DNA from: a virus | Lineage: Duplodnaviria > Heunggongvirae > Uroviricota > Caudoviricetes | Reading direction: 5' to 3' (one strand) | Virus record (IMG/VR): IMGVR_UViG_2695420523_000025 | Coordinates: 1 to 10,856 of that record | DNA length: 10,856 bases | Shown here: positions 1 to 10,856 of the stretch, in pieces | Layout of the letters: the number at the start of each line of letters is the position of its first letter | Position numbering within the stretch: position 1 is the first letter of the stretch | Made by a program: the position numbers and the translations under genes | Notes under the pieces: model-generated | Seen by the model: only the letters and a program-made list of their open reading frames with translations | Told to the model about the DNA's origin: nothing | Database searches by the model: none

Positions 1-861
1 CCTGTCCTGATTGATGTGAACGGCGTTCCGCTTCGTGAGAGTCTCAGCTACAACGGGGGCGGCGCAGGATTTGGCGGGCAAATGGCGGAGTGGTTGCCAC
101 CGGCGCAGAGTGTCGATGCGGCCCTGCTGCCCGCGTTGCGTCTGGGGAATGCCCGGGCAGATGATCTGGTGCGCAATAACGGAATAGCGGCTAATGCGGT
201 GGCCCTGCATAAGGATCACATTGTCGGGCATATGTTTCTGATCAGCTACCGTCTGAACTGGCGCTGGCTGGGGATGCGGGAGACCGCAGCAAAAAGCTTT
301 GTCGATGAGGTGGAGGCGGCCTGGTCGGAATACGCAGAAGGGATGTCTGGCGAGATCGACGTGGAAGGAAAACGCACATTTACGGAGTTTATCCGTGAAG
401 GTGTTGGCGTTCATGCGTTTAACGGCGAAATCTTTGTGCAGCCGGTCTGGGATACGGAAACCACGCAGTTATTCCGTACGCGTTTTAAAGCCGTGAGTCC
501 GAAACGGGTGGACACGCCAGGACACGGTATGGGGAACCGTTTTCTGCGGGCCGGGGTGGAGGTCGATCGATATGGCCGTGCCGTTGCGTACCATATCTGT
601 GAGGATGATTTTCCGTTCTCCGGGAGTGGACGATGGGAACGGATCCCGCGTGAACTTCCCACCGGGCGTCCGGCCATGCTGCATATTTTCGAGCCGGTGG
701 AGGACGGGCAGACCCGTGGGGCCAATCAGTTTTACAGCGTCATGGAACGGCTGAAGATGCTCGATTCCCTGCAGGCAACACAGCTTCAGTCGGCCATAGT
801 GAAGGCGATTTATGTCTATCATCTCACCGTAGTTGCCCGCATCGTTCGCCAACTCCACTGA
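1..861 (+). CDS. Phage portal protein, lambda gpB family; 5' end lies off-window and the 3' part appears replaced near nt 813, so likely a disrupted gene
   Basis: The frame is open from nt 1 (GTG at 16 is only the first start the ORF finder met). The translation carries blocks I recognise from lambda-family portals: YNGGGAGFGGQ, SVDAALLP, GNARADDLVRNNG, HKDHIVG, FEPVEDGQTRGANQFYSVME, TQLQSAIVKA. Recognisable similarity ends about 15 codons before the stop. Lambda-family portals are about 500-530 aa, whereas this ORF would be about 300 aa. Confidence 0.8.
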   Translation, partial: PVLIDVNGVPLRESLSYNGGGAGFGGQMAEWLPPAQSVDAALLPALRLGNARADDLVRNNGIAANAVALHKDHIVGHMFLISYRLNWRWLGMRETAAKSFVDEVEAAWSEYAEGMSGEIDVEGKRTFTEFIREGVGVHAFNGEIFVQPVWDTETTQLFRTRFKAVSPKRVDTPGHGMGNRFLRAGVEVDRYGRAVAYHICEDDFPFSGSGRWERIPRELPTGRPAMLHIFEPVEDGQTRGANQFYSVMERLKMLDSLQATQLQSAIVKAIYVYHLTVVARIVRQLH

Positions 862-937
862 AACCCTTGCTGCGTCTGGAATGTCGTTTTCCATGCTTTT
901 GATGACCGTTCATCACCCTTCCAGTTTTTCGCGGTTT

Positions 938-991
938 TGTGTATTGCAATGTGTATTGCAAATTGGCGATCGGGATGGGTGTGTATTGCAA
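938..991 (+). repeat. Three direct copies of TGTGTATTGCAA (938-949, 950-961, 980-991) just upstream of int; candidate integrase arm-type or autoregulatory sites within the att arm
   Basis: Three exact 12-bp copies read directly, two in tandem and a third 18 bp later, ending 19 bp before the int start codon. Confidence 0.55.
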
Positions 992-1009
992 ATCTCTTGA
1001 GGGCTTTTA

Positions 1010-2251
1010 ATGGCTATTGAAAACAAACTCAGTGACAAACTGTTAAAGAGTCTTGTCGGAAAACGGCAGGACAAACAAAAAACAATAGCGGATGGGCGCG
1101 GGTTGTCTGTGCGTGTAAGCATGGTTGGGGGGATCAGCTTTGTTTTTTACTATCGTCTTGGTGGCAGGGAATCCCCTCCGGTATGGCTTACACTTGGTCG
1201 CTATCCTGACATGTCTCTTGCAACGGCTAGGCGCATGCGTGATCAGTGCCGTGAATGGCTGGCTGAAAATCTGGACCCCCGCAGGCAAATAAAACTTGCT
1301 GCCGAAAAAACTATGCAACCAGTGACCGTAAGGGATGCGCTGTTTTACTGGTACGACAATCACGCCACAACAGCCAGAAAAGAGCATGAATATTTAATAA
1401 AACGATTTGAAAAGCATATCTTCCCCTATATCGGTGATATGGCTATAGAACAGTGCAAATTACACACATGGCTTACCGTCTTTGACAGGATCAAAAAAAA
1501 TGCGCCTGTTATGTCTGGTGCAATTTTTCTTGATATCAAACAGGCGTTGCGTTTTTGTCGCGTCAGGCAATACATCGCGTGCGATCCCTTTGGAGATATT
1601 AACGTAAGTTATGTCGGGCGCTCATCCGGTATAAGGGATCGCGTTCTTAATATCAATGAAACCGCTGATGTATGGTCTTATGCTTACGGTAATAATTTGC
1701 TAACTCTGTCATCAATATATAACCGAAGAATAATGGTTATCTGCCTGGTGTTTGGTTGCCGACAGCAGGAGGCGAGGCTATCCACCTGGGACGAATGGGA
1801 TTTAAAAAACTGGGTATGGACAGTCCCAAAAGAGCACAGCAAAAACAAGGAGGCTATAGTAAGGCCTGTTCCTGACGGAATAAAACAATGGATCGTTAAT
1901 CTTTACGCAGAAACAAAAAATCGCGGTTATGTTGTCGGTTGTGCTTTGCAAAGGGCGACAATAACAGGGGCTGCAAACAGAATATGCAGGCGTCTTGGTC
2001 ATGATACTAATGGCTTGTGGTGCATACATGATTTCAGGCGCACATTTTCCACTACGCTTAATGATATGGGGGCGGATCCTTATATTGTCGAACTTCTTTT
2101 AGGTCATAAAGTGAAAGGGGTTGCTGGTGTTTACAATAAAAGCAGGCATATAAAGAAAAAACTTGAGGTGCTTAATATGTGGGTTAATTACCTTAATACG
2201 ATAGCAGGATTTAACAACAACGTTATCGAGCTTAATAAAGAGGTGGTGTGA
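1010..2251 (+). CDS. int: Tyrosine site-specific integrase, P4-like family
   Basis: 413-aa ORF with RBS GAGGG about 7 nt upstream. N-terminal arm-binding-type region (GRGLSVRVSMVGGISFVFYYRLGG...LTLGRYPDMSLATAR). C-terminal catalytic region with HDFRRTF, LLGH and the tyrosine in GVYNKS. AT-richer than the portal fragment. Confidence 0.93.
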   Translation: MAIENKLSDKLLKSLVGKRQDKQKTIADGRGLSVRVSMVGGISFVFYYRLGGRESPPVWLTLGRYPDMSLATARRMRDQCREWLAENLDPRRQIKLAAEKTMQPVTVRDALFYWYDNHATTARKEHEYLIKRFEKHIFPYIGDMAIEQCKLHTWLTVFDRIKKNAPVMSGAIFLDIKQALRFCRVRQYIACDPFGDINVSYVGRSSGIRDRVLNINETADVWSYAYGNNLLTLSSIYNRRIMVICLVFGCRQQEARLSTWDEWDLKNWVWTVPKEHSKNKEAIVRPVPDGIKQWIVNLYAETKNRGYVVGCALQRATITGAANRICRRLGHDTNGLWCIHDFRRTFSTTLNDMGADPYIVELLLGHKVKGVAGVYNKSRHIKKKLEVLNMWVNYLNTIAGFNNNVIELNKEVV

Positions 2252-2252
2252 T

Positions 2253-2510
2253 ATGGCAATTTATTCTCTTGTTGATGAAAACGATTTGCGCACAATGAAG
2301 GACATTGATCGGTTCATTCGTGAAAAAGAGTGCATAGCACTTACCACGCTGGCAAACTCAACACGCTGGAAAATGGAGCAGGCAGGTAAATTCCCGCGAC
2401 GTATCAAGATCGGTGAACGTGCTGCAGGGTATCGACTTTCAGAGGTTCAGGCATGGATCCGTGGTGAGTGGCATCCTGGATGGAAACCTGGAAAAACAAA
2501 ACAGCAATAA
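2253..2510 (+). CDS. alpA: AlpA-family (Phage_AlpA) helix-turn-helix regulator / excisionase-like protein
   Basis: 85-aa ORF starting 1 nt after the int stop (TGAtATG) with RBS AAGAGGTGG. The core LTTLANSTRWKMEQAGKFPRRIKIGERAAGYRLSEVQAWI matches the AlpA/Xis pattern. Confidence 0.85.
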   Translation: MAIYSLVDENDLRTMKDIDRFIREKECIALTTLANSTRWKMEQAGKFPRRIKIGERAAGYRLSEVQAWIRGEWHPGWKPGKTKQQ

Positions 2511-2566: not shown

Positions 2567-3145
2567 ATGAATAAAAATATTGCCGTGACGGGCAAGGGGT
2601 ACGCTCGTCCAGTGAAAAAATTCTGCGATATTCGTGATCTCGTCGTTCTGCGCTTTGATAGTGTGAACGTTCGTGTGGTGTATCTGAACGGCGATCCGTG
2701 GTTTGTTGCAAAAGATGTTTGTGCTGCGCTGGAACTAACCAATTCGCGTACGGCGTTGCAGATGCTTGATGATGATGAAAAGGGAGTAAATTTAACTTAC
2801 ACCCCAGGAGGAAATCAGAATATGAGAATTATCTCTGAGTCAGGTTTCTACAAACTAATAGCCCGCAGCCGCAAAGCAACGACGCCTGGCACATTTGCTC
2901 ATCGTTTCAGTAACTGGGTATTCAGAAATGTGATACCAGGTATCAGAAAAACGGGGACTTATGGTATCCCGTGGGGTGCATTACAGGATTTTTCCCGCCG
3001 TAAAGAGCAATATCAAATAAGTGCCAGCGAGAAGGGGAGGGAGCTACAGGCATGTAAGCGCAAAAAGCGTGAGCTGGAGGAAGAAGAAAAAACGCTGATA
3101 CGTGAATATCAGCCTGAGTTTTACTTTGGTAACCGCATTCAGTGA
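2567..3145 (+). CDS. Bro-N domain protein (antirepressor-like) with a charged coiled-coil C-terminus
   Basis: 192-aa ORF. The core VVYLNGDPWFVAKDVCAALELTNSRTALQMLDDDEKG is typical of the Bro-N fold. C-terminal KRKKRELEEEEKTLIREYQ is predicted helical. It starts only 20 nt after the terminator T-tract, so its promoter is unclear. Confidence 0.7.
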   Translation: MNKNIAVTGKGYARPVKKFCDIRDLVVLRFDSVNVRVVYLNGDPWFVAKDVCAALELTNSRTALQMLDDDEKGVNLTYTPGGNQNMRIISESGFYKLIARSRKATTPGTFAHRFSNWVFRNVIPGIRKTGTYGIPWGALQDFSRRKEQYQISASEKGRELQACKRKKRELEEEEKTLIREYQPEFYFGNRIQ

Positions 3146-3154
3146 CAAAACAAA

Positions 3155-3175
3155 GGCGACCGCAAAAGGGTCGCC
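3155..3175. terminator. GC hairpin between the convergent Bro-N and minus-strand genes; possible terminator, better placed for minus-strand transcripts
   Basis: GGCGACC (3155-3161), loop of 7 nt, GGTCGCC (3169-3175). No T-run follows on the + strand; the minus strand reads TTTGTTTTG after the stem. Confidence 0.35.
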
Positions 3176-3241
3176 AGTGGGAACAAGGGAAAACAAAAGC
3201 ATCACCAACAATGCCACATTTGCGGCTGGTGGGCAATGTGA

Positions 3242-3421
3242 TCAGTCAGATTTGGTTCGTTCCAAGGTTTGCAACGAGAGCTTTTTCCTGTGCTCTTTAA
3301 GGAATTTCTCAAGAGCAAACGAACAAGGTGCGAATCTTTCTGATTCATGTTCATGCGCTATATTTTTGCGTCGTCTCTTACGAGTTGGTGATGGTGTTTT
3401 GGTTGATTCTGTGTCGCTCAT
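3242..3421 (-). CDS. Small basic hypothetical protein (59 aa), absent from the ORF track
   Basis: Manually translated from the minus strand: MSDTESTKTPSPTRKRRRKNIAHEHESERFAPCSFALEKFLKEHRKKLSLQTLERTKSD, with stop TGA at 3244-3242. AGGA lies 7 nt upstream of the ATG. It sits 57 nt downstream of the RHH-like gene on the same strand. Confidence 0.3.
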   Translation of the reverse strand: MSDTESTKTPSPTRKRRRKNIAHEHESERFAPCSFALEKFLKEHRKKLSLQTLERTKSD

Positions 3422-3478
3422 GGTGCTGTCCTGTAAAGCAATGCGCCTGCGTTCCTCAAACTATGGCGCTGATAGTGG

Positions 3479-3784
3479 CTATTCCTGCTCTTTGACCTTG
3501 CGTCGCTGGAGTTCTTCACGCGCGACGGTGACGAGTTGCCCGATCTCCTCGGCGGCTTTGACTCCGATTTTTTCCACCTGCGCTAGGGCATCGAGCGAAG
3601 AAACCAGGAGGTTTTCTCCGCTTCCTTCTGCCTGGCGGCGGGCGATTTCACCGCGCATGGCGGTTACTATGAATCCGGCGTTGCTTTCACCGTCCAGTTT
3701 TACGGATTCCATGCCTTCAATAACATCATGCGGGATCCGAGCTGTCAGTGATTGTGATTTTGCGTTTTTTGAACCTGTAGCCAT
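3479..3784 (-). CDS. Ribbon-helix-helix-like DNA-binding protein; candidate repressor of the divergent rightward operon
   Basis: The N-terminus KSQSLTARIPHDVIEGMESVKLDGESNAGFIVTAMRGEIARR has the RHH beta-strand plus two helices pattern, followed by a helical tail. I prefer the ATG at 3784 (RBS GAGAGGA 6 nt upstream) over the ORF-track TTG at 3799. It is divergent from a region with palindromic operator-like sites. Confidence 0.6.
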   Translation of the reverse strand: MATGSKNAKSQSLTARIPHDVIEGMESVKLDGESNAGFIVTAMRGEIARRQAEGSGENLLVSSLDALAQVEKIGVKAAEEIGQLVTVAREELQRRKVKEQE

Positions 3785-3805
3785 CTGTAATCCTCTCAAT
3801 GAAAG

Positions 3806-3900
3806 TGTAAGACAATATACACATAAAAAGTCTTACATAAAAGCATTGACATGTAAGCCACCTATAAATAAAGTTACTTACACCTTGTTAATACAAGGTG
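3806..3900. promoter_or_regulatory. Divergent promoter/operator region with TGTAAG/CTTACA half-sites, a sigma70-like rightward promoter and a 7-bp-stem palindrome
   Basis: Half-sites TGTAAG at 3806-3811 and 3852-3857, inverted partners CTTACA at 3832-3837 and 3877-3882. TTGACA at 3846-3851 with TAAAGT 17 bp downstream at 3869-3874 (rightward). On the minus strand TATATT is a candidate -10 for the RHH gene. Palindrome CACCTTG-N6-CAAGGTG at 3881-3900. Confidence 0.45.
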
Positions 3901-3980
3901 CAGAAACGACGAAACCCCGCACTGTAGGAGCAGTAACGGGGCTTCTAACCACCAACGATAGCAAGATTATCGAGGCAGCT

Positions 3981-4184
3981 ATGAGAAATTATACCATACA
4001 CCCGCAAGGGCGGGACTCGTACAACCTGAATAAATACATCTGGCGTTTTATCGCCCTGAGCACCGCACAACCGCGCGTGATTCACATCGTGGCCACCAGC
4101 GAACAGGAAGCACGCCAGCAATCCCCGGCTGGCTGCGTGATGGTATTCGCCGCCCGTATTCGTCAGGGGGTGTGCCATGCCTGA
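3981..4184 (+). CDS. Small hypothetical protein (67 aa), first gene of the rightward operon
   Basis: ATG at 3981 with GAGG 5 nt upstream, in frame with the stop at 4182-4184, which overlaps the start of the next gene by 8 nt. It is the only plausible part of the long low-complexity ORF 3102..4184. Confidence 0.45.
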   Translation: MRNYTIHPQGRDSYNLNKYIWRFIALSTAQPRVIHIVATSEQEARQQSPAGCVMVFAARIRQGVCHA

Positions 4185-4497
4185 TATGTCAAATTACCAG
4201 TACCTGATTAATCCGCATTTTAACTGTGAGCATGATATTGCTAAAAAGGTTTATTCCGCTGCTGATGGGGCTACTGACAATATATCAATGGCTGTTGCGT
4301 CAATTGGTAGCCTGATGTGGCATGCGTCAGAAAATGAGGACTATGACGAAAAGGCCATGCGCATTGATATGGGTAATATCGGTTTGTTACTGGCAATGCT
4401 TGGGCAGTTTGATATTTCGTTACGGTGCACCATTGAAAATGCCACAGATGCATTAAATGCCATAAAGAAAGCGAATACTGATTCAAATCGGGGATAA
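4177..4497 (+). CDS. Hypothetical protein (106 aa)
   Basis: ATG at 4177 with RBS AGGGGG 6 nt upstream. Overlaps the preceding stop. No recognisable motif. Confidence 0.6.
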   Translation: MPDMSNYQYLINPHFNCEHDIAKKVYSAADGATDNISMAVASIGSLMWHASENEDYDEKAMRIDMGNIGLLLAMLGQFDISLRCTIENATDALNAIKKANTDSNRG

Positions 4498-4503
4498 ATA
4501 ATC

Positions 4504-4803
4504 ATGAGAACATATTTATCTGGCTTGACTGCCAGCGGTTATGCACACCCCAAAATTATCCCCGGCGCTATTTATCTGGATAAGAACGGTAACAGAGTAA
4601 CGGTAAAAGAGCTGATGTTTGACCGTGTGTATTTTATTCGTGATGGCTATTCATTTCATAGTTCGCTGAACGTGGAGATCTTTATTAGCAGATTCAGGCG
4701 GGAAATCCCGCTTTCCAGAAAAAACCATGTGTCACGTGTGAATGTGGATAAAAAACTACAGGAACTGAAAAACATGATTGCCGCGTGGAGAGAGCAGAAA
4801 TGA
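4504..4803 (+). CDS. Hypothetical protein (99 aa)
   Basis: ATG at 4504, 7 nt after the previous stop. Its stop TGA (4801-4803) overlaps the primase ATG (4800-4802). No recognisable motif. Confidence 0.6.
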   Translation: MRTYLSGLTASGYAHPKIIPGAIYLDKNGNRVTVKELMFDRVYFIRDGYSFHSSLNVEIFISRFRREIPLSRKNHVSRVNVDKKLQELKNMIAAWREQK

Positions 4804-6617
4804 AAAAAGCGCCAAATTTAAAACACCAGCCGCGTGACAAAATGACGGAAGTCATCATTTTTGCGGGTAGTGATGCGTGGGCACATGCGAAGCAGTGGCA
4901 GGAACAGGACGGGCGACTGGCTGGCGATAACGTGCCTCCTGTCTGGCTTGGAGAGCAACAACTTGCCGAACTGGACAACCTGCAAATCGTACCGGACGGA
5001 CGCTATCGCGTGCGTCTCTATCAGGCGGGGTTATTGCGTCCGGGGCTTGTTAATACCATCGGGCAGAAACTGGCAGCGGCAGGTGTCAGGGATGCTGATT
5101 ATTACTCTGAAGGAATGCACAGCCAGAAACGGGAGAACTGGCGCGAATATCTGGAACGTGAACGGGCAGAGCTGGCGGAAAAGAAAAAGGTAGTTGAACT
5201 GCCTGTAAAGAAAAAAGAGCGGGTAAAAGACGATAACGCTTCATCACTGGCGCTTAACCAGATGGGAGCAAGTCAACGCGGCGAAGTTCTCCTGGCACAT
5301 TATGGCGGTGAACTGGCGATTCATGCTGACTCTGACACTGTTCACCATTACAACGGCGTTGTATGGGAGCCAGTACAGGATAAAGAATTACAGCGAGCTA
5401 TGGCACAGATTTTCATTGATGCGGAGATCAGCTATTCGCAGAACGCCATTAAATCGGCGGTCGATACCATGAAGTTAAGTTTGCCTGTTATGGGGAATAC
5501 AGCCCGTAACCTGATTGGATTCAGTAACGGGGTATTTGATACCAGAACAGGTAATTTTCGGGAGCATAACAAAAACGACTGGTTGTTAATTGCCAGTGAA
5601 TTACCTTTCAGCCCACCAGCAGAGGGGGAAACGCTGGCAACACATGCGCCGAATTTCTGGAAGTGGTTACGCCGTTCGGTGGCTGAGAATGACCGCAAGG
5701 CGGATCGCGTACTGGCTGCATTATTCATGGTGCTGGCGAACCGGTACGACTGGCAGTTATTCATTGAGGTAACAGGTCCAGGGGGAAGTGGTAAAAGCGT
5801 GATGGCGGAGATTTGCACCATGCTGGCGGGTAAGGCCAACACAGTATCGGCAAGCATGAAGGCGCTGGAAGATGCAAGGGAACGCGCGTTAGTGGTTGGC
5901 TTTTCGCTGATTATCATGCCGGATATGACCCGCTACGCTGGTGATGGGGCAGGAATTAAGGCCATTACAGGCGGTGACAAGGTGGCAATTGACCCGAAAC
6001 ACAAAGCCCCCTACTCAACGCGTATTCCGGCAGTAGTGCTGGCGGTTAACAATAACGCCATGTCATTCAGTGACCGCAGCGGGGGGATCTCACGTCGTCG
6101 GGTGATATTCAATTTTTCGGAAGTTGTACCGGAGAACGAACGCGATCCAATGCTGGCGGAAAAAATAGAAGGTGAGCTGGCGGTAGTGATTCGCCATCTG
6201 CTTACACGGTTTGCTGACCAGGACGAAGCCAGACGCCTGTTATATGAGCAGCAGAAATCTGAAGAAGCACTGGCGATAAAGCGAGAGGGGGATTCGCTGG
6301 TGGACTTCTGCGGCTATCTCATGGCGTCGGTAATGTGTGATGGCCTGTTAGTGGGTAATGCTGAAATTGTGCCATTCAGCCCACGCAGGTATCTCTATCA
6401 TGCCTATCTGGCTTATATGAGGGCACATGGGTTTGGTAAACCTGTAACACTGACGCGCTTCGGTAAAGATATGCCGGGGGCAATGGCGGAATATGGCAGG
6501 GAGTATATGAAACGGAAAACGAAGCACGGTTTGCGTTCAAACGTGACACTGACGGAGGAATCAGAAGACTGGATGCCATCATGTGTATCGGTCACTAATG
6601 ACGATAGCAAAAATTAA
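4800..6617 (+). CDS. Replication primase/helicase, P4 alpha-like (N-terminal primase-type region plus SF3/D5-type NTPase)
   Basis: Long ORF with Walker A GPGGSGKS and a downstream hydrophobic stretch ending in D (SLIIMPDM, Walker B-like). Start taken at ATG 4800 (RBS GGAGAGAG), but GTG 4785 and ATG 4842 are alternatives. An iteron array follows immediately. Confidence 0.9.
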   Translation: MKKAPNLKHQPRDKMTEVIIFAGSDAWAHAKQWQEQDGRLAGDNVPPVWLGEQQLAELDNLQIVPDGRYRVRLYQAGLLRPGLVNTIGQKLAAAGVRDADYYSEGMHSQKRENWREYLERERAELAEKKKVVELPVKKKERVKDDNASSLALNQMGASQRGEVLLAHYGGELAIHADSDTVHHYNGVVWEPVQDKELQRAMAQIFIDAEISYSQNAIKSAVDTMKLSLPVMGNTARNLIGFSNGVFDTRTGNFREHNKNDWLLIASELPFSPPAEGETLATHAPNFWKWLRRSVAENDRKADRVLAALFMVLANRYDWQLFIEVTGPGGSGKSVMAEICTMLAGKANTVSASMKALEDARERALVVGFSLIIMPDMTRYAGDGAGIKAITGGDKVAIDPKHKAPYSTRIPAVVLAVNNNAMSFSDRSGGISRRRVIFNFSEVVPENERDPMLAEKIEGELAVVIRHLLTRFADQDEARRLLYEQQKSEEALAIKREGDSLVDFCGYLMASVMCDGLLVGNAEIVPFSPRRYLYHAYLAYMRAHGFGKPVTLTRFGKDMPGAMAEYGREYMKRKTKHGLRSNVTLTEESEDWMPSCVSVTNDDSKN

Positions 6618-6630
6618 ACTTATGGAATAA

Positions 6631-6853
6631 CTGTTCACCACTGTTCACCCTGTCATAAATATCTTTTGTATCAGTATGTTATAGGGTGAACAGTTATTTA
6701 TGAACTGTTCACCAAACTATTCACTGTTCACCTTTTTGATTGTTTATTGAGCTTCAAGGGTGAACAGTGGTGAACAGTTGGTGAATAGTTTTTGTGAAAC
6801 TGTTCACCCCTTAACATTATGAATAAAAAGTTAAAATATCAAAAGGTGAACAG
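6631..6853. repeat. Iteron array, putative origin of replication of the element
   Basis: Exact CTGTTCACC at 6631, 6641, 6705, 6724 and 6800. Exact inverse GGTGAACAG at 6685, 6759, 6769 and 6845. Degenerate GGTGAATAG at 6780. Tandem copies have 10-11 bp periodicity. Two inverted pairs have 11-bp AT-rich spacers (6685-6713 and 6780-6808). The surroundings are AT-rich and directly downstream of the primase gene. Confidence 0.75.
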
Positions 6854-6904
6854 GTGAAGGGTTAAAACGCAAAAATTTTAATTTACTGCTGTGAGATAAA
6901 GCCT

Positions 6905-7150
6905 ATGACAGCGAAGCACACAAAAAAATCACAATCGCACGCCCTTGATTTGACGGAACACTGGTTAAGGGTGTCGATAAAAATCATCGACCGCAACGCC
7001 GGGGAAGGATATGCGAAAGCACATCCCGAACTGATTAGCTCATTCATGACAACGGCAGCTGCAAACTTTGCCACGCTGACAGAACGGGAGATTGCCGAAG
7101 CGGAACAGGTGACAACCATCAACGTTAAAACCGGAGAGCAGACAGCATGA
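6905..7150 (+). CDS. Hypothetical protein (81 aa), translationally coupled to the SSB-like gene
   Basis: ATG at 6905. Its stop TGA (7148-7150) overlaps the downstream ATG (7147-7149). No recognisable motif. Confidence 0.55.
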   Translation: MTAKHTKKSQSHALDLTEHWLRVSIKIIDRNAGEGYAKAHPELISSFMTTAAANFATLTEREIAEAEQVTTINVKTGEQTA

Positions 7151-7569
7151 CAGCACAGATAGCGGCTTACGGGCGGCTGGTGGCTGACCCGCAGTTAAAG
7201 ACCACCAGCAAGGGTACACAAATGACGATGGCGAGTATGGCGGTCCCACTTCCGTGCAGCCAGGCAGATGACGGAACGGCGACGATGTGGTTATCCGTCC
7301 TGGCGTTTGGCAGACAGGCCGAAGCACTGGCAAAGCACCGCAAGGGTGAACTCCTGAGCGTGGCGGGTAACATGCAGGTGAGCCAGTGGACCGGACAGAA
7401 CGGGGAGACGCGGCAGGGCTGGCAGGTTATCGCAGACAGCGTAATCAGTGCGAGAACGGCGCGACCGGGCGGCAAAAAAGGCCAACAGGGGCAGGCTACT
7501 GATGCACTGAGCAGAGCAAAACAACAGGCGGGAAATGATGATCCGTACGGGGATAACATACCGTTTTAA
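7147..7569 (+). CDS. ssb: Single-stranded DNA-binding protein (SSB family) with acidic C-terminal tip ending IPF
   Basis: 140-aa OB-fold-like N-terminus (IAAYGRLVADPQLK...WLSVLAFGRQAEALAKHRKGELLSVAGNMQVSQWTGQNGETRQGWQVIADSV) that parallels E. coli SSB block by block. Gly/Gln-rich linker. C-terminus DDPYGDNIPF compared with SSB DFDDDIPF. Confidence 0.8.
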   Translation: MTAQIAAYGRLVADPQLKTTSKGTQMTMASMAVPLPCSQADDGTATMWLSVLAFGRQAEALAKHRKGELLSVAGNMQVSQWTGQNGETRQGWQVIADSVISARTARPGGKKGQQGQATDALSRAKQQAGNDDPYGDNIPF

Positions 7570-7993: not shown

Positions 7994-8203
7994 GTGAGTT
8001 GTATTAATGACCTGAACACGGGCGATATCAGGGGTGGTTCCGTTCATCTGGATGCGCAGACCGTTATGCGCCTTAAGCAGTACAGGATCGACCATATAAA
8101 TCATCATCCTGACAAACCATTACCAGGTGTGGCGCAGATTGTCAGGCATGCCGTAAACGCCTGGCTTAATCAGAGTGGTTTTGCATCGGAGAGTGAGCAA
8201 TGA
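7994..8203 (+). CDS. Small hypothetical protein (69 aa), translationally coupled to the protease-capsid gene
   Basis: GTG start with strong RBS AAGAGGAAG 7 nt upstream. Its stop TGA (8201-8203) overlaps the ATG at 8200-8202. A weak RHH-like pattern (MRLKQYRIDH...VAQIVRHAVNAWL) is not conclusive. Confidence 0.5.
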   Translation: MSCINDLNTGDIRGGSVHLDAQTVMRLKQYRIDHINHHPDKPLPGVAQIVRHAVNAWLNQSGFASESEQ

Positions 8204-10113
8204 ATCACTGGTACACCATTAAGGCGGCGGATGTTCGCGGAGCGGCGGATATATCTATCTATGAGGAGATTGGCGGCTTCGGTGTTACTGCAAAGCAGTT
8301 CGCGGAAGACCTGAAAGCCCTTGGCGATGTTTCACATATCAATCTGAGGATCCATTCACCAGGTGGTGATGTGTTTGAAGGCATCGCCATCTATAACCTG
8401 CTACGGAATCATCCGGCAGACATTACGGTTTATATCGATGGTGTTGCGGCTTCAATGGCTTCGGTTGTCGCAATGGCTGGCGATCGTGTTGTTATGCCGG
8501 AGAACGCCATGATGATGATCCATAAACCGTGGGGTATCTCTGGCGGAAATGCTGGCGATATGCGTGATTATGCTGATTTGCTGGATAAGGTGGAAACCGT
8601 GTTAATCCCTGCTTATGCCAGAAAAACGGGCAAATCAGCACAGGAAATTACCGCCATGCTGGAGGATGAAACCTGGATGGATGGGAAAGAATGCCTTAAG
8701 CACGGTTTTGCTGATGAATTGTTGCCATCCGTCAGAGCAATGGCGCGAATTGAATCGAAACGCACAGGAGATTTTTTACATATGCCGGAAACCATTAAAG
8801 GAATGATTACACCGCCACAGGGAGCGGCAAATATTGCTGGTAATGAACAGAAGCGCATCAATGGAATAAGTGAAGTGTTTAGCTTGTTCGGCAGTCGTTA
8901 CGACGGGATCAAAATGGCGTGTCTGGAAGATGCATCATGTACACCGGAAATGGCCCGTGAAAAGCTGTTGAACGAGCTGGGGCGCGAGTCCACGCCATCC
9001 AATAAAAATACCCCGCCTCATATCTATGCCGGAAACGGAAACATAACAGGTGATGCAATTCGTCAGGGGCTTTATTCCCGTCTTGGGTATGAACGCCCTG
9101 AACGAGGCAACCCTTACGCGATGATGAGCCTTTTTGAAATGGCCCAGGCATCACTGGTTGATCGTGGTATCACTGTGAGCGGTTTTATTAATCGCTCGCA
9201 GGTTGTTAATGCGGCTTTTACACACAGCAGCAGCGATTTTTCTCATATTCTGGCTGGTGGCGCTGAAAAATCAGTACTGAAAGGCTGGCAGGACAGCGGC
9301 GAAACGTTCCAGAAATGGACGCGTACCGGTTCGCTTTCAAACTTTCATGAAGCAAAGCGCGTTGGTCTGAATGGTTTTTCAAAGCTGGATAAAGTACCGG
9401 AAGGCGCGGAATATAAATACATCACCACTAGCGATAAAGGTGTACCTATTGCGCTGGCCACGTACGGGAATATTTTTTCCGTTACCCGTCAGGCCATTAT
9501 CAACGATGACCTGACCCAGTTAACTACAATCCCCATGGCGATGGGACGCGCAGCTGCCAGAACAGTTGGCAATCTGGTTTATCTCCTGTTAACCAGCAAC
9601 GGCAAGTTTACGGATGGTAAAGCGTTATTCCATGCCGATCATAAAAATCTTATTGCGAAGGATATGGACATGGAGGGGCTTAACGAAGCCCGTAAGCTGA
9701 TGCGCCTCCAGGAAGACGCTAACGGCGATTCGCTGAATATTACCCCCGCATTTGTCCTGGTCCCCGCCGCGCTGGAGTCTGCCGCACATCGCGCCATTCT
9801 GTCATCGTCATCACTCTTTCCGGTTGATGGCGTGGGCACTATCAATCAGAACCCCGGCATCATTAACGTGGTGAAAGATATGGCGGAGGTAATCGTTGAG
9901 CCACGTCTTGATAAAGCCAATAACAAGGAGTGGTATGTGGCAGCGGCGAAGGGTATGGACACGATAGAGGTCGCTTATCTTGATGGTATTGATACGCCAT
10001 ATCTTGAGGAGCAGGAGGGCTTTACTGTTGATGGCGTCGCCTGGAAGGTGCGCATAGATGCAGGTGTCGCGGCCCTCGACTATCGCGGATTACTGAAATC
10101 GAGTGGAGCATGA
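8200..10113 (+). CDS. Fusion protein: N-terminal ClpP-like (S14-type) prohead serine protease joined to a C-terminal putative major capsid domain
   Basis: N-terminal 200 aa carry ClpP signatures HSPGGDVFEGIAIYNLL, catalytic-serine context GVAASMASVVAMAGD and histidine context MMMIHKPWG. The remaining roughly 430 aa have the size and position expected of a scaffold plus capsid region. The capsid assignment is from context and general resemblance, not a verified alignment. Confidence 0.8.
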   Translation: MNHWYTIKAADVRGAADISIYEEIGGFGVTAKQFAEDLKALGDVSHINLRIHSPGGDVFEGIAIYNLLRNHPADITVYIDGVAASMASVVAMAGDRVVMPENAMMMIHKPWGISGGNAGDMRDYADLLDKVETVLIPAYARKTGKSAQEITAMLEDETWMDGKECLKHGFADELLPSVRAMARIESKRTGDFLHMPETIKGMITPPQGAANIAGNEQKRINGISEVFSLFGSRYDGIKMACLEDASCTPEMAREKLLNELGRESTPSNKNTPPHIYAGNGNITGDAIRQGLYSRLGYERPERGNPYAMMSLFEMAQASLVDRGITVSGFINRSQVVNAAFTHSSSDFSHILAGGAEKSVLKGWQDSGETFQKWTRTGSLSNFHEAKRVGLNGFSKLDKVPEGAEYKYITTSDKGVPIALATYGNIFSVTRQAIINDDLTQLTTIPMAMGRAAARTVGNLVYLLLTSNGKFTDGKALFHADHKNLIAKDMDMEGLNEARKLMRLQEDANGDSLNITPAFVLVPAALESAAHRAILSSSSLFPVDGVGTINQNPGIINVVKDMAEVIVEPRLDKANNKEWYVAAAKGMDTIEVAYLDGIDTPYLEEQEGFTVDGVAWKVRIDAGVAALDYRGLLKSSGA

Positions 10114-10120
10114 CAACAAG

Positions 10121-10143
10121 GGCGGCGATAGCCGCCTTTTTTT
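10121..10143 (+). terminator. Intrinsic terminator after the protease-capsid gene
   Basis: GGCGGC (10121-10126), loop GATA, GCCGCC (10131-10136), then TTTTTTT (10137-10143). Confidence 0.7.
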
Positions 10144-10145
10144 AC

Positions 10146-10217
10146 GGGTCCTCCCGGTGGGGTGGTCTGCCACGGGGCGGGAGCGGCGCGGAAAAAGGCT
10201 AGTTTTTGCATTTTCAT
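10146..10217 (+). repeat. Copy 2 of the 72-bp GC-rich intergenic module
   Basis: Matches 7610-7681 at 66 of 72 positions. It has the same placement, 2 nt after a terminator T-run and upstream of the next operon. Confidence 0.6.
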
Positions 10218-10370
10218 TCGTCATCATCATCTTTCTATTGTATTGAATTTTAAGTATTTTTATTTTTGGCATGTTAATTTTGCTTGTTTTATGCTCAACA
10301 TATAGCGCATTTTTTGACCTCTTCTGAAAGTTGTTCGCAAGATGCATGTTTAAAACATTCTGGAGCGGGT

Positions 10371-10856
10371 ATGGATCGAGAACTGAAAAATCTGATGCTG
10401 AACATTAATCAACTGGCGGCGATAGCGGGAATATGTCGTCAGACTGCGGCGGCAAGGCTGAAAAACATCCAGCCAGCCGGAGGGCATGACAAGCTAAAAC
10501 TCTATCGGGTGACTGACATTCTGACCTGTTTTCTTGATCTTCCCGTTCCGGCATCACTGGAAGAAATGGAGCCACATGACCGTAAGGCCTGGTATCAGTC
10601 CGAACGTGAGCGCCTCAGGTTCGAACAGGAAACGGCGCAACTCATACCCGCCGATGATGTGCGAAAAGAGATGGCTATATGGGGGGAAATCGTAAGCGAG
10701 GAACTGGCAAAACTCCCCAATATTCTGGCACGTGATGCCGGGCTTAAACCGATGGCAGTAAACAGAGTGCAGTCAATTATTGACGATTTGCGTAATCAGA
10801 TTATCAGCCGGATGGTAAAAAATGACGTAGTGAATGAGGTCGCAAAACAGGCATGA
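10371..10856 (+). CDS. Nu1-like small terminase subunit or packaging-specificity DNA-binding protein
   Basis: Start taken at ATG 10371 (RBS GGAG 5 nt upstream) rather than the ORF-track 10284. N-terminal HTH-like LNINQLAAIAGICRQTAAARLKN, then a LY...ERERLRFEQE region and a C-terminal helical region, with an overall layout like lambda Nu1. The stop is at the last 3 nt of the window. Confidence 0.55.
   Translation: MDRELKNLMLNINQLAAIAGICRQTAAARLKNIQPAGGHDKLKLYRVTDILTCFLDLPVPASLEEMEPHDRKAWYQSERERLRFEQETAQLIPADDVRKEMAIWGEIVSEELAKLPNILARDAGLKPMAVNRVQSIIDDLRNQIISRMVKNDVVNEVAKQA

What the first reader, a model, noticed from the sequence alone, without database searches (positions are those of the whole stretch)
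6631..6853. Bidirectional iteron array with helical-phase spacing downstream of the primase
There are at least ten copies of a 9-bp unit in both orientations, including two inverted pairs with identical 11-bp spacing and tandem copies at 10-11 bp intervals, in AT-rich DNA. This is the classic layout of a Rep or primase-bound origin and implies the element replicates autonomously after induction.
Basis: seen in the sequence. Interest (0 to 1): 0.5.

Follow-up and report, generated by a model that had tools for sequence, protein, structure and literature searches.

The report
P4-type replication origin of a satellite island
The repeat cluster is real and is the replication origin of a phage-satellite island (a PICI sitting inside a prophage portal gene); it is built from the same 8-bp binding sites and the same site layout as the origin of satellite phage P4, so it is a clear but already familiar kind of element.

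Summary
The intergenic 287 bp after the 'primase' gene holds 9 exact copies of TGTTCACC, 1 copy with one mismatch and 2 degenerate copies, on both strands. TGTTCACC is the 'type 1' origin repeat of phage P4. The array consists of two six-site modules placed head to head around a dyad centre near 6745. Each module aligns in register with the P4 ori (- - - + [43-44 bp AT-rich spacer] - -).

The upstream protein is 51% identical to the helicase and origin-binding parts of P4 alpha. Its C-terminus matches the solved P4 origin-binding domain (1KA8, E=1.8e-24). It lacks alpha's zinc-ribbon and Toprim primase domains.

Across relatives the geometry is kept while the site core changes (TGTTCACC, TGTCTACC, TGTCCGCC, TGTCCACC, TCTCTACC, TGTGCACC). 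Among closely related proteins the change tracks the last ~30 residues of the protein. EcCICFT073, whose pri-ori segment has been shown experimentally to act as a replicon, has the same plan.

The element is a helper-embedded PICI inserted in a lambda-type portal gene. The array occurs in 669 of 5426 complete E. coli genomes.

Verdict: this is an origin of a known kind and a new member of it.

The parts
4800..6617 (+). Initiator gene, annotated in RefSeq as 'DNA primase family protein'. It is 605 aa from the ATG at 4800; the open frame starts at a GTG at 4785. The architecture is an unknown N-terminal domain, then D5_N, an SF3 helicase (DUF5906) and a Pox_D5/P4-type origin-binding domain.
   Evidence: Pfam domains. 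51% identity to P4 alpha residues 320-771. 75% identity to the homolog in the induced element vB_KppS-Ant. 49% identity to EcCICFT073 Pri.
4800..5200 (+). N-terminal domain of about 130 aa. It has no sequence match to any primase domain. The predicted fold is Toprim-like, but the catalytic acidic motifs were not recognisable.
6288..6578 (+). C-terminal origin-binding (winged-helix) domain, residues 502-598 of the 610-aa frame.
   Evidence: Match to PDB 1KA8 (P4 alpha origin-binding domain) at E=1.8e-24.
6486..6575 (+). The last ~30 residues of the binding domain (inferred wing hairpin), which change together with the iteron core among closely related proteins.
   Evidence: Loci with TGTCTACC iterons are 90-93% identical in the helicase and 82-85% in the first part of the domain, but only 37-40% identical here. 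Loci with TGTTCACC iterons are 70-80% identical here.
6632..6732 (-). Left origin module, read on the - strand so that it has the orientation of P4 ori. Its six iterons are 6632-6639 (+), 6642-6649 (+), 6685-6692 (-), 6706-6713 (+), 6718-6725 (+, degenerate TATTCACT) and 6725-6732 (+).
   Evidence: 60.6% identity to P4 ori 9296-9426 with all iterons in register.
6650..6684 (.). Left AT-rich spacer (74% A+T) between the outer iteron pair and the inner four. It is a candidate melting region.
   Evidence: The length is conserved and the sequence is variable in relatives.
6733..6758 (.). Dyad centre between the two modules (73% A+T).
   Evidence: Inverted repeats I1 and I2. As single-stranded DNA, 6618-6872 folds into one long hairpin with z=-9.0.
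6759..6860 (+). Right origin module, in the same orientation as P4 ori. Its six iterons are 6759-6766 (-), 6769-6776 (-), 6780-6787 (-, TATTCACC), 6801-6808 (+), 6845-6852 (-) and 6853-6860 (-, degenerate CCTTCACC).
   Evidence: BLASTN hit to the P4 'origin of DNA replication / ori type 1 repeat (x4)'. 65.6% identity to P4 ori with iterons in register.
6809..6844 (.). Right AT-rich spacer (83% A+T). It is a candidate melting region.
6861..6886 (.). Conserved A/T-rich flank (TTAAAACGCAAAAATTTTAATTTAC) just outside the outer iteron pair. Its role is unknown.
   Evidence: It is conserved in the alignment of relatives where the spacers are not. P4 ori has a similar A-rich tract at the same place.
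6905..7150 (+). Conserved 81-aa gene of unknown function, the first gene after the origin.
   Evidence: phrog_1231 at E=8e-49. A gene of similar size (hypothetical protein) lies at the same position in EcCICFT073, 11capE and EC28.
7147..7569 (+). Single-strand DNA-binding protein, part of the replication module.
   Evidence: Pfam SSB at E=7e-16.
1..814 (+). N-terminal part of a lambda-family prophage portal gene interrupted by the island. This is the left junction of the helper-embedded PICI.
   Evidence: Pfam Phage_portal_2. Homology to intact portal genes stops at 814. In strain EC28 the two portal halves flank the island.
1010..2510 (+). Integrase (1010-2251) and AlpA regulator (2253-2510) of the island.
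   Evidence: Pfam.

Best explanation
Window 6632-6860 is the replication origin of a Gram-negative phage-inducible chromosomal island (PICI). Here the island is embedded in the portal gene of a lambdoid prophage.

The origin is a P4-type origin with twelve 8-bp iterons (consensus TGTTCACC). They are arranged as two six-iteron modules in inverted orientation. Each module has the plan 'three tandem sites, one inverted site 21 bp on, a 43-44 bp AT-rich spacer, then two more sites'.

The protein encoded immediately upstream is a P4-alpha-like SF3 helicase. It recognises the iterons through its C-terminal winged-helix domain, and the last ~30 residues (the inferred wing) set sequence specificity.

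Inferred mechanism: after induction the protein is made, its C-terminal domains dock on the iterons, and hexamers assemble. The dyad suggests two hexamers, one per six-site module. An AT-rich spacer melts and replication proceeds in both directions, helped by the island's own SSB. Because the protein lacks alpha's zinc-ribbon and Toprim primase, priming is probably left to the host primase or another factor.

Shown here: the sequence and register homology to P4 ori, the homology of the binding domain, the co-variation of the wing segment with the iteron core among closely related proteins, and the shared plan with an experimentally validated PICI origin. Inferred only: double-hexamer loading, the site of melting and the source of primers.
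For: 1. The array is far beyond chance and confined to the intergenic region.
2. TGTTCACC is annotated as the 'ori type 1 repeat' in P4 ori and crr. BLASTN links window 6754-6815 to the P4 origin. Both halves align with P4 ori at 61-66% identity with all six iterons in register. Alignment scores are +31 and +33 against -27 +/- 5.5 for shuffled sequence.
3. The upstream protein is 51% identical to the helicase and origin-binding part of alpha. Its C-terminus matches PDB 1KA8 at E=1.8e-24. [quoted passage not shown]
4. In 72 related loci the array recurs right after the gene with nearly the same spacings, while the spacers diverge. Iteron columns are 81% conserved against 54% for the other columns (p=6e-11).
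5. The iteron core differs by lineage. Among close relatives it changes together with the C-terminal ~30 residues while the rest of the protein stays 82-93% identical.
6. EcCICFT073 has the same gene order and the same ++ - +++ --- + -- plan built from T(G/C/A)TCTACC sites, and has no such site elsewhere in 18 kb. Its pri-ori segment replicates a plasmid, and deleting pri or ori impairs this (PMC6092414).
7. No second cluster exists in the window or in the complete 16.5-kb relative vB_KppS-Ant.
Against: No experiment was done on this sequence. No binding, melting or initiation site has been mapped.

In P4 the iteron cluster directly downstream of alpha is crr, not ori, so position alone would suggest an auxiliary element.

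No sigma-70 promoter, DnaA box, IHF site or GATC cluster was found to mark an unwinding element.

The wing assignment rests on canonical winged-helix topology, not on a model. The AF2 single-sequence model of the domain failed (pLDDT 46.9).

Two different wing types (EcCICFT073/L051 versus L006/L010/L011) go with similar TGTCTACC-like sites, and L039 has a divergent tail yet TGTTCACC-like sites. The code is therefore not one-to-one.
Confidence: 0.9

Rival explanations
1. The array is a crr-like auxiliary cis element used for looping, handcuffing or copy-number control. It binds the same protein, but replication starts at another site in the island.
For: In P4 the cluster immediately downstream of alpha is crr, and ori lies 4.7 kb away. 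A P4-like Erwinia locus also has two separated clusters. The window does not reach the right end of the island.
Against: Sequence and register match P4 ori rather than the crr unit. There is no second cluster in the window, in the complete 16.5-kb relative or in the 18 kb around EcCICFT073. Deleting the equivalent region of EcCICFT073 impairs plasmid replication (PMC6092414).
Confidence: 0.05
2. The repeats are mainly a transcriptional operator. The initiator or another island regulator binds there to control the downstream orf81-ssb-late gene block.
For: The array lies directly upstream of orf81/ssb. A conserved A/T-rich tract follows it. No terminator separates it from the upstream gene.
Against: No promoter-like site was found in 6400-7200. 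The layout is homologous to a known origin. The iteron core changes with the C-terminus of the helicase in close relatives. A secondary regulatory role is not excluded.
Confidence: 0.03
3. The repeats are a packaging (pac/cos) or recombination (att arm) site, or a chance cluster of short repeats in AT-rich DNA.
For: The island carries terS and capsid genes and an integrase. Short repeats are common in AT-rich spacers.
Against: The array is 3.4 kb from terS and 4.4 kb from int. The left junction is near 814. The count exceeds every shuffle. Geometry is conserved across genera. The cos sites of EcCICFT073 were mapped as separate features (PMC6092414).
Confidence: 0.01

Closest known systems
Origin (ori) of satellite phage P4, bound by the alpha protein (type 1 repeats TGTTCACC)
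   Same: The 8-bp iteron is identical. The six-site plan (- - - + [43 bp AT-rich] - -) is the same and aligns in register at 61-66% identity. The cognate protein shares alpha's SF3 helicase and its C-terminal origin-binding domain (51% identity; 1KA8 E=1.8e-24).
   Different: Here two such modules are fused head to head in one 230-bp locus directly after the gene. P4 instead has ori and a separate crr 4.7 kb apart. No P4 type 2 repeats were aligned (not searched for). No Cnr (orf106) homolog is present. The protein lacks alpha's zinc-ribbon and Toprim primase.
Replication origin of Gram-negative PICIs, e.g. EcCICFT073 pri-ori (Fillol-Salom et al. 2018, PMC6092414)
   Same: The gene order is the same (int, alpA..., DUF4222, pri, ori, small orf, ssb). 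The origin lies immediately 3' of pri. Sets of iterons flank AT-rich DNA. The twelve-site dyad plan is the same. The Pri proteins are 49% identical with the same domain order.
   Different: The iteron core differs: T(G/C/A)TCTACC in EcCICFT073 against TGTTCACC here. The wing segment differs. One spacer is GC-rich in EcCICFT073. This island sits inside a prophage portal gene rather than at a chromosomal site.
Helper-embedded PICI 11capE of E. coli NRG857c (PMC10111431)
   Same: The origin region is 97.7% identical, the replication module has the same gene order, and the island is likewise embedded in a late gene of a lambdoid prophage.
   Different: 11capE interrupts the major capsid gene, whereas this island interrupts the portal gene. 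The integrase and late modules differ.
[quoted passage not shown]
   Same: Short initiator sites occur in both orientations around AT-rich DNA, next to or recognised by a helicase that is its own origin-binding protein. The dyad symmetry is suited to head-to-head hexamers. (This rests on general knowledge and on PMC6092414.)
   Different: There is no sequence relationship of the sites. SaPI Rep and the viral origin-binding domains are different folds or families. This comparison was not tested here.

Membership tests
P4-type alpha-dependent origin | Multiple copies of the type 1 iteron TGTTCACC in both orientations | tested here: met
   There are 9 exact copies, 1 one-mismatch copy and 2 degenerate copies in 6632-6860. 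The motif is annotated as 'ori type 1 repeat' in NC_001609.
P4-type alpha-dependent origin | Iteron order, orientation and spacing as in P4 ori (- - - + [43] - -) | tested here: met
   Both halves align with P4 9296-9426 with all six sites in register. Alignment scores are more than 10 sd above shuffled sequence.
P4-type alpha-dependent origin | Cognate initiator with alpha-type SF3 helicase and C-terminal origin-binding winged-helix domain | tested here: met
   51% identity to alpha residues 320-771. PDB 1KA8 at E=1.8e-24. Pfam D5_N, DUF5906 and Pox_D5.
P4-type alpha-dependent origin | Initiator carries the N-terminal zinc-ribbon and Toprim primase of alpha | tested here: not met
   No Pfam hit at E<=5 for the N-terminal 155 aa. 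The same scan finds Zn_Ribbon_Prim and Toprim_3 in P4 alpha and in L039, L043 and L051. hhalign is not significant. Only a fold-level Toprim resemblance is seen.
P4-type alpha-dependent origin | Two separated cis elements (ori and crr) both present | tested here: not met
   The window has a single compound cluster. No other cluster exists in the complete relative L002 or around EcCICFT073. P4 and L016 have two clusters.
P4-type alpha-dependent origin | Cnr (orf106) copy-number regulator next to the initiator gene | tested here: not met
   The two small ORFs upstream (4177-4497 and 4504-4803) show no BLASTP similarity to P4 orf106.
Gram-negative PICI pri-ori replicon | Unidirectional int - alpA - ... 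- pri gene order with ori immediately 3' of pri | tested here: met
   int 1010-2251, alpA 2253-2510, pri 4800-6617 and the array 6632-6860 are all on the + strand. The feature definition is from PMC6092414 and PMC10111431.
Gram-negative PICI pri-ori replicon | [quoted passage not shown] | tested here: met
   Iteron sets flank spacers of 74-83% A+T. EcCICFT073 has the same plan.
Gram-negative PICI pri-ori replicon | The pri-ori segment supports autonomous replication | not testable with these tools
   This was shown only for EcCICFT073 (PMC6092414). It needs a plasmid maintenance assay for this sequence.
Helper-embedded PICI (HE-PICI) | [quoted passage not shown] | tested here: met
   A portal N-terminal fragment occupies 1-814 and is followed by int on the same strand. 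Strain EC28 shows both portal halves around the island, within a prophage late operon.
Plasmid-type iteron origin (RepA/pi/RepE class) | Directly repeated 17-22 bp iterons, a RepA-family initiator and DnaA boxes | tested here: not met
   The sites are 8-9 bp and lie in both orientations. The initiator is an SF3 helicase. No DnaA box at <=1 mismatch was found in 6560-6960.

The most novel reading that the evidence does not exclude
The twelve-site dyad is a loading platform for two head-to-head hexamers of an alpha-type SF3 helicase, with six C-terminal domains per hexamer matching six iterons per module. This compact dyad, rather than the split ori + crr of P4, would be the general state of the alpha family. 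The last ~30 residues of the protein would form a swappable specificity cassette that, together with the iteron core, creates mutually orthogonal satellite replicons. The variants without a primase domain would have become dependent on a host or helper primase.
Probability: 0.3. Interest if true: 0.45.

Novelty: new member of a known kind. Interest (0 to 1): 0.3.

Why it matters
The result puts a functional label on a very common piece of E. coli DNA, present in 669 of 5426 complete genomes. It also ties PICI origins to the biochemically studied P4 alpha/ori system. The 2018 PICI paper described the PICI origin organisation as shared with no other known bacterial replicon.

In practice the result gives three things:
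- A ready-made model for how these islands start replication.
- A mapped candidate specificity determinant (the ~30 C-terminal residues against iteron positions 2-6). This could explain compatibility between co-resident satellites and could be used to build orthogonal replicons.
- A warning that the 'DNA primase family protein' annotation of these genes does not imply a primase domain.

None of this overturns current understanding.

Tried and rejected
- AF2 of the C-terminal domain from a single sequence gave an unusable model (pLDDT 46.9). The 'wing' assignment therefore rests on canonical winged-helix topology.
- hhalign of the N-terminal domain against the P4 alpha N-terminus was not significant.
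- A Cnr (P4 orf106) homolog was sought among the small upstream ORFs and none was found.
- The promoter and terminator scan of 6400-7200 found nothing.
- DnaA box, IHF consensus and GATC searches in 6560-6960 found nothing.
- Rfam and tRNA scans of the window were empty, so the array is not a known RNA gene.
- I tested whether the fused dyad goes with loss of the primase domain and rejected the idea. Full-length zinc-ribbon + Toprim proteins (L039, L051) also have the dyad downstream.
- A literature search on the raw motif returned only unrelated primer sequences.
- The original P4 alpha/ori paper I recalled (Ziegelin et al. 1993) could not be retrieved under the id I tried. What I say about alpha binding the type 1 repeats therefore rests on the GenBank annotation, on PMC2777425 and on my own knowledge.
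- The Xenorhabdus and Photorhabdus relatives show other, weaker repeats that I did not resolve.

Full report
**1. The observation**

The intergenic stretch between the stop of the 'primase' gene (6617) and the next gene (ATG at 6905) holds the 9-mer CTGTTCACC nine times exactly and once with one mismatch. Five copies are on each strand, all between 6631 and 6853. At <=1 mismatch the whole window has 13 hits, against 2.06 +/- 1.53 in shuffles. The 8-mer TGTTCACC gives 21 hits against 8.7 +/- 3.0.

Two more degenerate copies are TATTCACT at 6718-6725 and GGTGAAGG at 6853-6860. They sit exactly where relatives and P4 have good copies, which makes twelve sites in all.

Most centre-to-centre distances (10, 10, 11, 11, 21, 21, 43, 44) are close to multiples of 10.5 bp. 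Two 8-bp steps and the 34-bp step across the centre are not.

The region is 66-67% A+T. It has no ORF of 40 aa or more, no Rfam or tRNA match, and no promoter-like or terminator-like site.

**2. Anatomy**

The sites are not scattered. Reading left to right, the pattern is + + [43] - [21] + + + [34] - - - [21] + [44] - -. This is two six-site modules in inverted orientation around a centre near 6745.

The repeat finder reports 56-nt and 36-nt inverted arms. As single-stranded DNA, 6618-6872 folds into one long hairpin of -52.5 kcal/mol, against -24.0 +/- 3.2 for shuffles (z = -9.0). That fold is simply a measure of the dyad symmetry. The two halves are 66% identical to each other. Each module has a 35-36 bp spacer of 74-83% A+T.

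**3. What it is homologous to**

BLASTN of the region against phage records hits the annotated 'origin of DNA replication / ori type 1 repeat (x4)' of phage P4. The P4 record annotates TGTTCACC as the type 1 repeat, with six copies in ori (9310-9413) and ten in crr (4291-4590), which lies directly downstream of alpha.

The right half of the array, and the reverse complement of the left half, each align with P4 9296-9426 at 65.6% and 60.6% identity, with all six iterons in register. Global alignment scores are +33 and +31, against -27 +/- 5.5 for shuffled P4 ori. Each half is therefore a P4-ori-like module. The P4 crr unit has a related but permuted plan.

**4. The protein next door**

The upstream ORF is 605 aa from the ATG at 4800. 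It carries D5_N, an SF3 helicase region (DUF5906) and Pox_D5. It is 51% identical to P4 alpha over alpha residues 320-771. Its residues 502-598 match the solved P4 origin-binding domain 1KA8 at E=1.8e-24. [quoted passage not shown]

The first ~150 residues of the window protein are unrelated to alpha. They have no Pfam hit even at E<=5. The same scan finds Zn_Ribbon_Prim and Toprim_3 in P4 alpha and in three relatives.

The domain also occurs in front of other helicase types, namely RepA-like AAA_25 and other D5_N variants. Calling this protein a primase is therefore not supported. It is best described as an alpha-like helicase/initiator.

**5. Comparative test of 'this protein reads these sites'**

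A scan of one genome per species returned 72 related loci. In the closer relatives (Kluyvera, Raoultella, Pluralibacter, Citrobacter, Klebsiella and the induced element vB_KppS-Ant) the same array follows the gene with essentially identical spacings. In an alignment of nine such arrays, iteron columns are 81% conserved and other columns 54% (Mann-Whitney p = 5.6e-11).

Other lineages keep the geometry but change the core:

| Iteron core | Loci |
|---|---|
| TGTCTACC | L006, L010, L011 |
| TGTCCGCC | L013, L014 |
| TGTCCACC | L015 |
| TCTCTACC | L051, L055 |
| TGTGCACC | L043 (one module only) |

The protein tracks this change. The TGTCTACC loci are as close to the window protein as the TGTTCACC loci in the helicase (90-93%) and in the first two thirds of the binding domain (82-85%). 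They drop to 37-40% identity in the last ~30 residues, against 70-80% for TGTTCACC loci, and they carry a 5-residue insertion there.

By canonical winged-helix topology this segment is the beta-hairpin wing. That assignment is inference, because my attempt to model the domain failed. The code is not one-to-one. EcCICFT073 and L051 use a different, insertion-free tail with similar T(G/C)TCTACC sites, and L039 keeps TGTTCACC-like sites with a divergent tail.

**6. Link to an experimentally validated origin**

Fillol-Salom et al. [quoted passage not shown] They showed that the EcCICFT073 rep-ori segment maintains a ts plasmid at the restrictive temperature, while rep or ori deletions impair this.

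I located EcCICFT073 in NC_004431. It has the same gene order (DUF4222 gene, 584-aa 'primase family' protein, 288-bp gap, small orf, SSB). Its Pri is 49% identical to the window protein with the same domain order. The gap holds T(G/C/A)TCTACC sites in the same ++ - +++ -- ... -- plan, and there are none elsewhere in 18 kb. The window array is thus the counterpart of a tested origin.

**7. What the element is**

The window starts with the N-terminal part of a lambda-family portal gene. Homology to intact portal genes ends at 814. In strain EC28 the two portal halves flank a related island inside a prophage late operon. This is the helper-embedded PICI configuration described in PMC10111431.

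The array region is found in 669 of 5426 complete E. coli genomes. These include strain NRG 857C, where it lies at 97.7% identity in the 11capE island studied in that paper. The rest of the window encodes int, AlpA, a Bro-N protein, small ORFs, orf81, SSB, a ClpP-protease/major-capsid fusion and a small terminase.

**8. Mechanism**

Shown: homology of the sites, their layout and the binding domain to the P4 system; conservation of geometry; co-variation of site core and C-terminal segment among close relatives; equivalence to a functional PICI origin.

Inferred:
- The C-terminal domains dock on the iterons.
- Six sites per module match six subunits of a hexamer.
- The dyad loads two hexamers head to head, as at other SF3-helicase origins.
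- An AT-rich spacer melts.
- The island's SSB covers the single strands.
- Primers come from the host primase or another factor, since no primase domain is detectable.

No DnaA box, IHF consensus or GATC is present. This fits a self-contained initiator.

The compact dyad is not tied to loss of the primase domain. Full-length zinc-ribbon + Toprim proteins in Rahnella and Symbiopectobacterium have it too, and a Proteus element has a single module. P4-like elements have split clusters.

**9. Rivals**

- A crr-like auxiliary role is suggested by position in P4. It is disfavoured by the better match to ori, the absence of any second cluster in complete relatives, and the EcCICFT073 deletion result.
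- An operator role cannot be excluded as a secondary function. There is no promoter signal to support it.
- Packaging sites, att sites and chance are excluded by location, statistics and co-variation.

**10. Novelty and score**

The kind of feature is known: the P4 type 1 iterons, and PICI origins 3' of pri. [quoted passage not shown]

Three points may be new, although I cannot exclude that the figures of PMC6092414 show some of them:
- Each half of the PICI origin is a sequence-level, in-register homolog of P4 ori. The 2018 paper calls the organisation unique among bacterial replicons.
- Specificity maps to the C-terminal ~30 residues.
- The 'primase' here lacks a primase domain.

Overall this is a new member of a known kind, with interest 0.3.

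Noticed in passing
window 1-1010: The window opens with the N-terminal part of a lambda-family portal gene. Its homology to intact portal genes stops at 814, and the integrase gene starts at 1010. The island is therefore inserted inside, and co-oriented with, a prophage portal gene (a helper-embedded PICI). Only 3 of 5426 complete E. coli genomes share this exact junction.
   Followed up: yes
[not shown]
   Followed up: partly
window 5307-5346: An inverted pair of iteron-like 9-mers (CAGTTCACC on the - strand at 5307, CTGTTCACC on the + strand at 5338) lies inside the initiator gene. No exact TGTTCACC copy lies outside the array in the 75%-identical relative L002, so the pair is probably chance.
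   Followed up: no
window 6861-6886: The A/T-rich tract TTAAAACGCAAAAATTTTAATTTAC just outside the outer iteron pair is conserved among relatives whose spacers have diverged. P4 ori has an A-rich tract at the same place. It could be part of the origin (melting or priming site) or a promoter for orf81-ssb.
   Followed up: no
window 3102-4184: The 360-aa ORF listed here is probably not one gene. Only its last ~90 aa match a phage family (phrog_6196, 'transcriptional repressor'). In the related EC28 island, RefSeq annotates at the corresponding place an Icd-like cell-division inhibitor on the + strand and a YlcI/YnfO gene on the - strand (compare - strand ORF 3479-3799). No P4-type immunity RNA was detected by Rfam.
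   Followed up: no
window 8200-10856: The island carries its own ClpP-protease/major-capsid fusion gene (8200-10113) and a DUF1441-type small terminase (10284 to the window end). Its late module therefore differs from those of EC28, 11capE and EcCICFT073, which have a plain major capsid and a decoration protein. The replication module is shared across mosaic islands.
   Followed up: partly
L006 (Escherichia ruysiae) 5806-6140: This relative has TGTCTACC iterons, but their order and spacing differ from the usual plan. The pairs are separated by about 90 bp of unrelated sequence, which suggests a rearranged or interrupted origin.
   Followed up: no
L017-L064 (Xenorhabdus/Photorhabdus loci), 350 bp after the gene: These alpha-like genes (about 50% identity) are followed by AT-rich DNA with only weak repeats (e.g. 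ATGTATAG, 2-4 copies) and one conserved TGTTCACC at +132. Their origin sites were not resolved.
   Followed up: no
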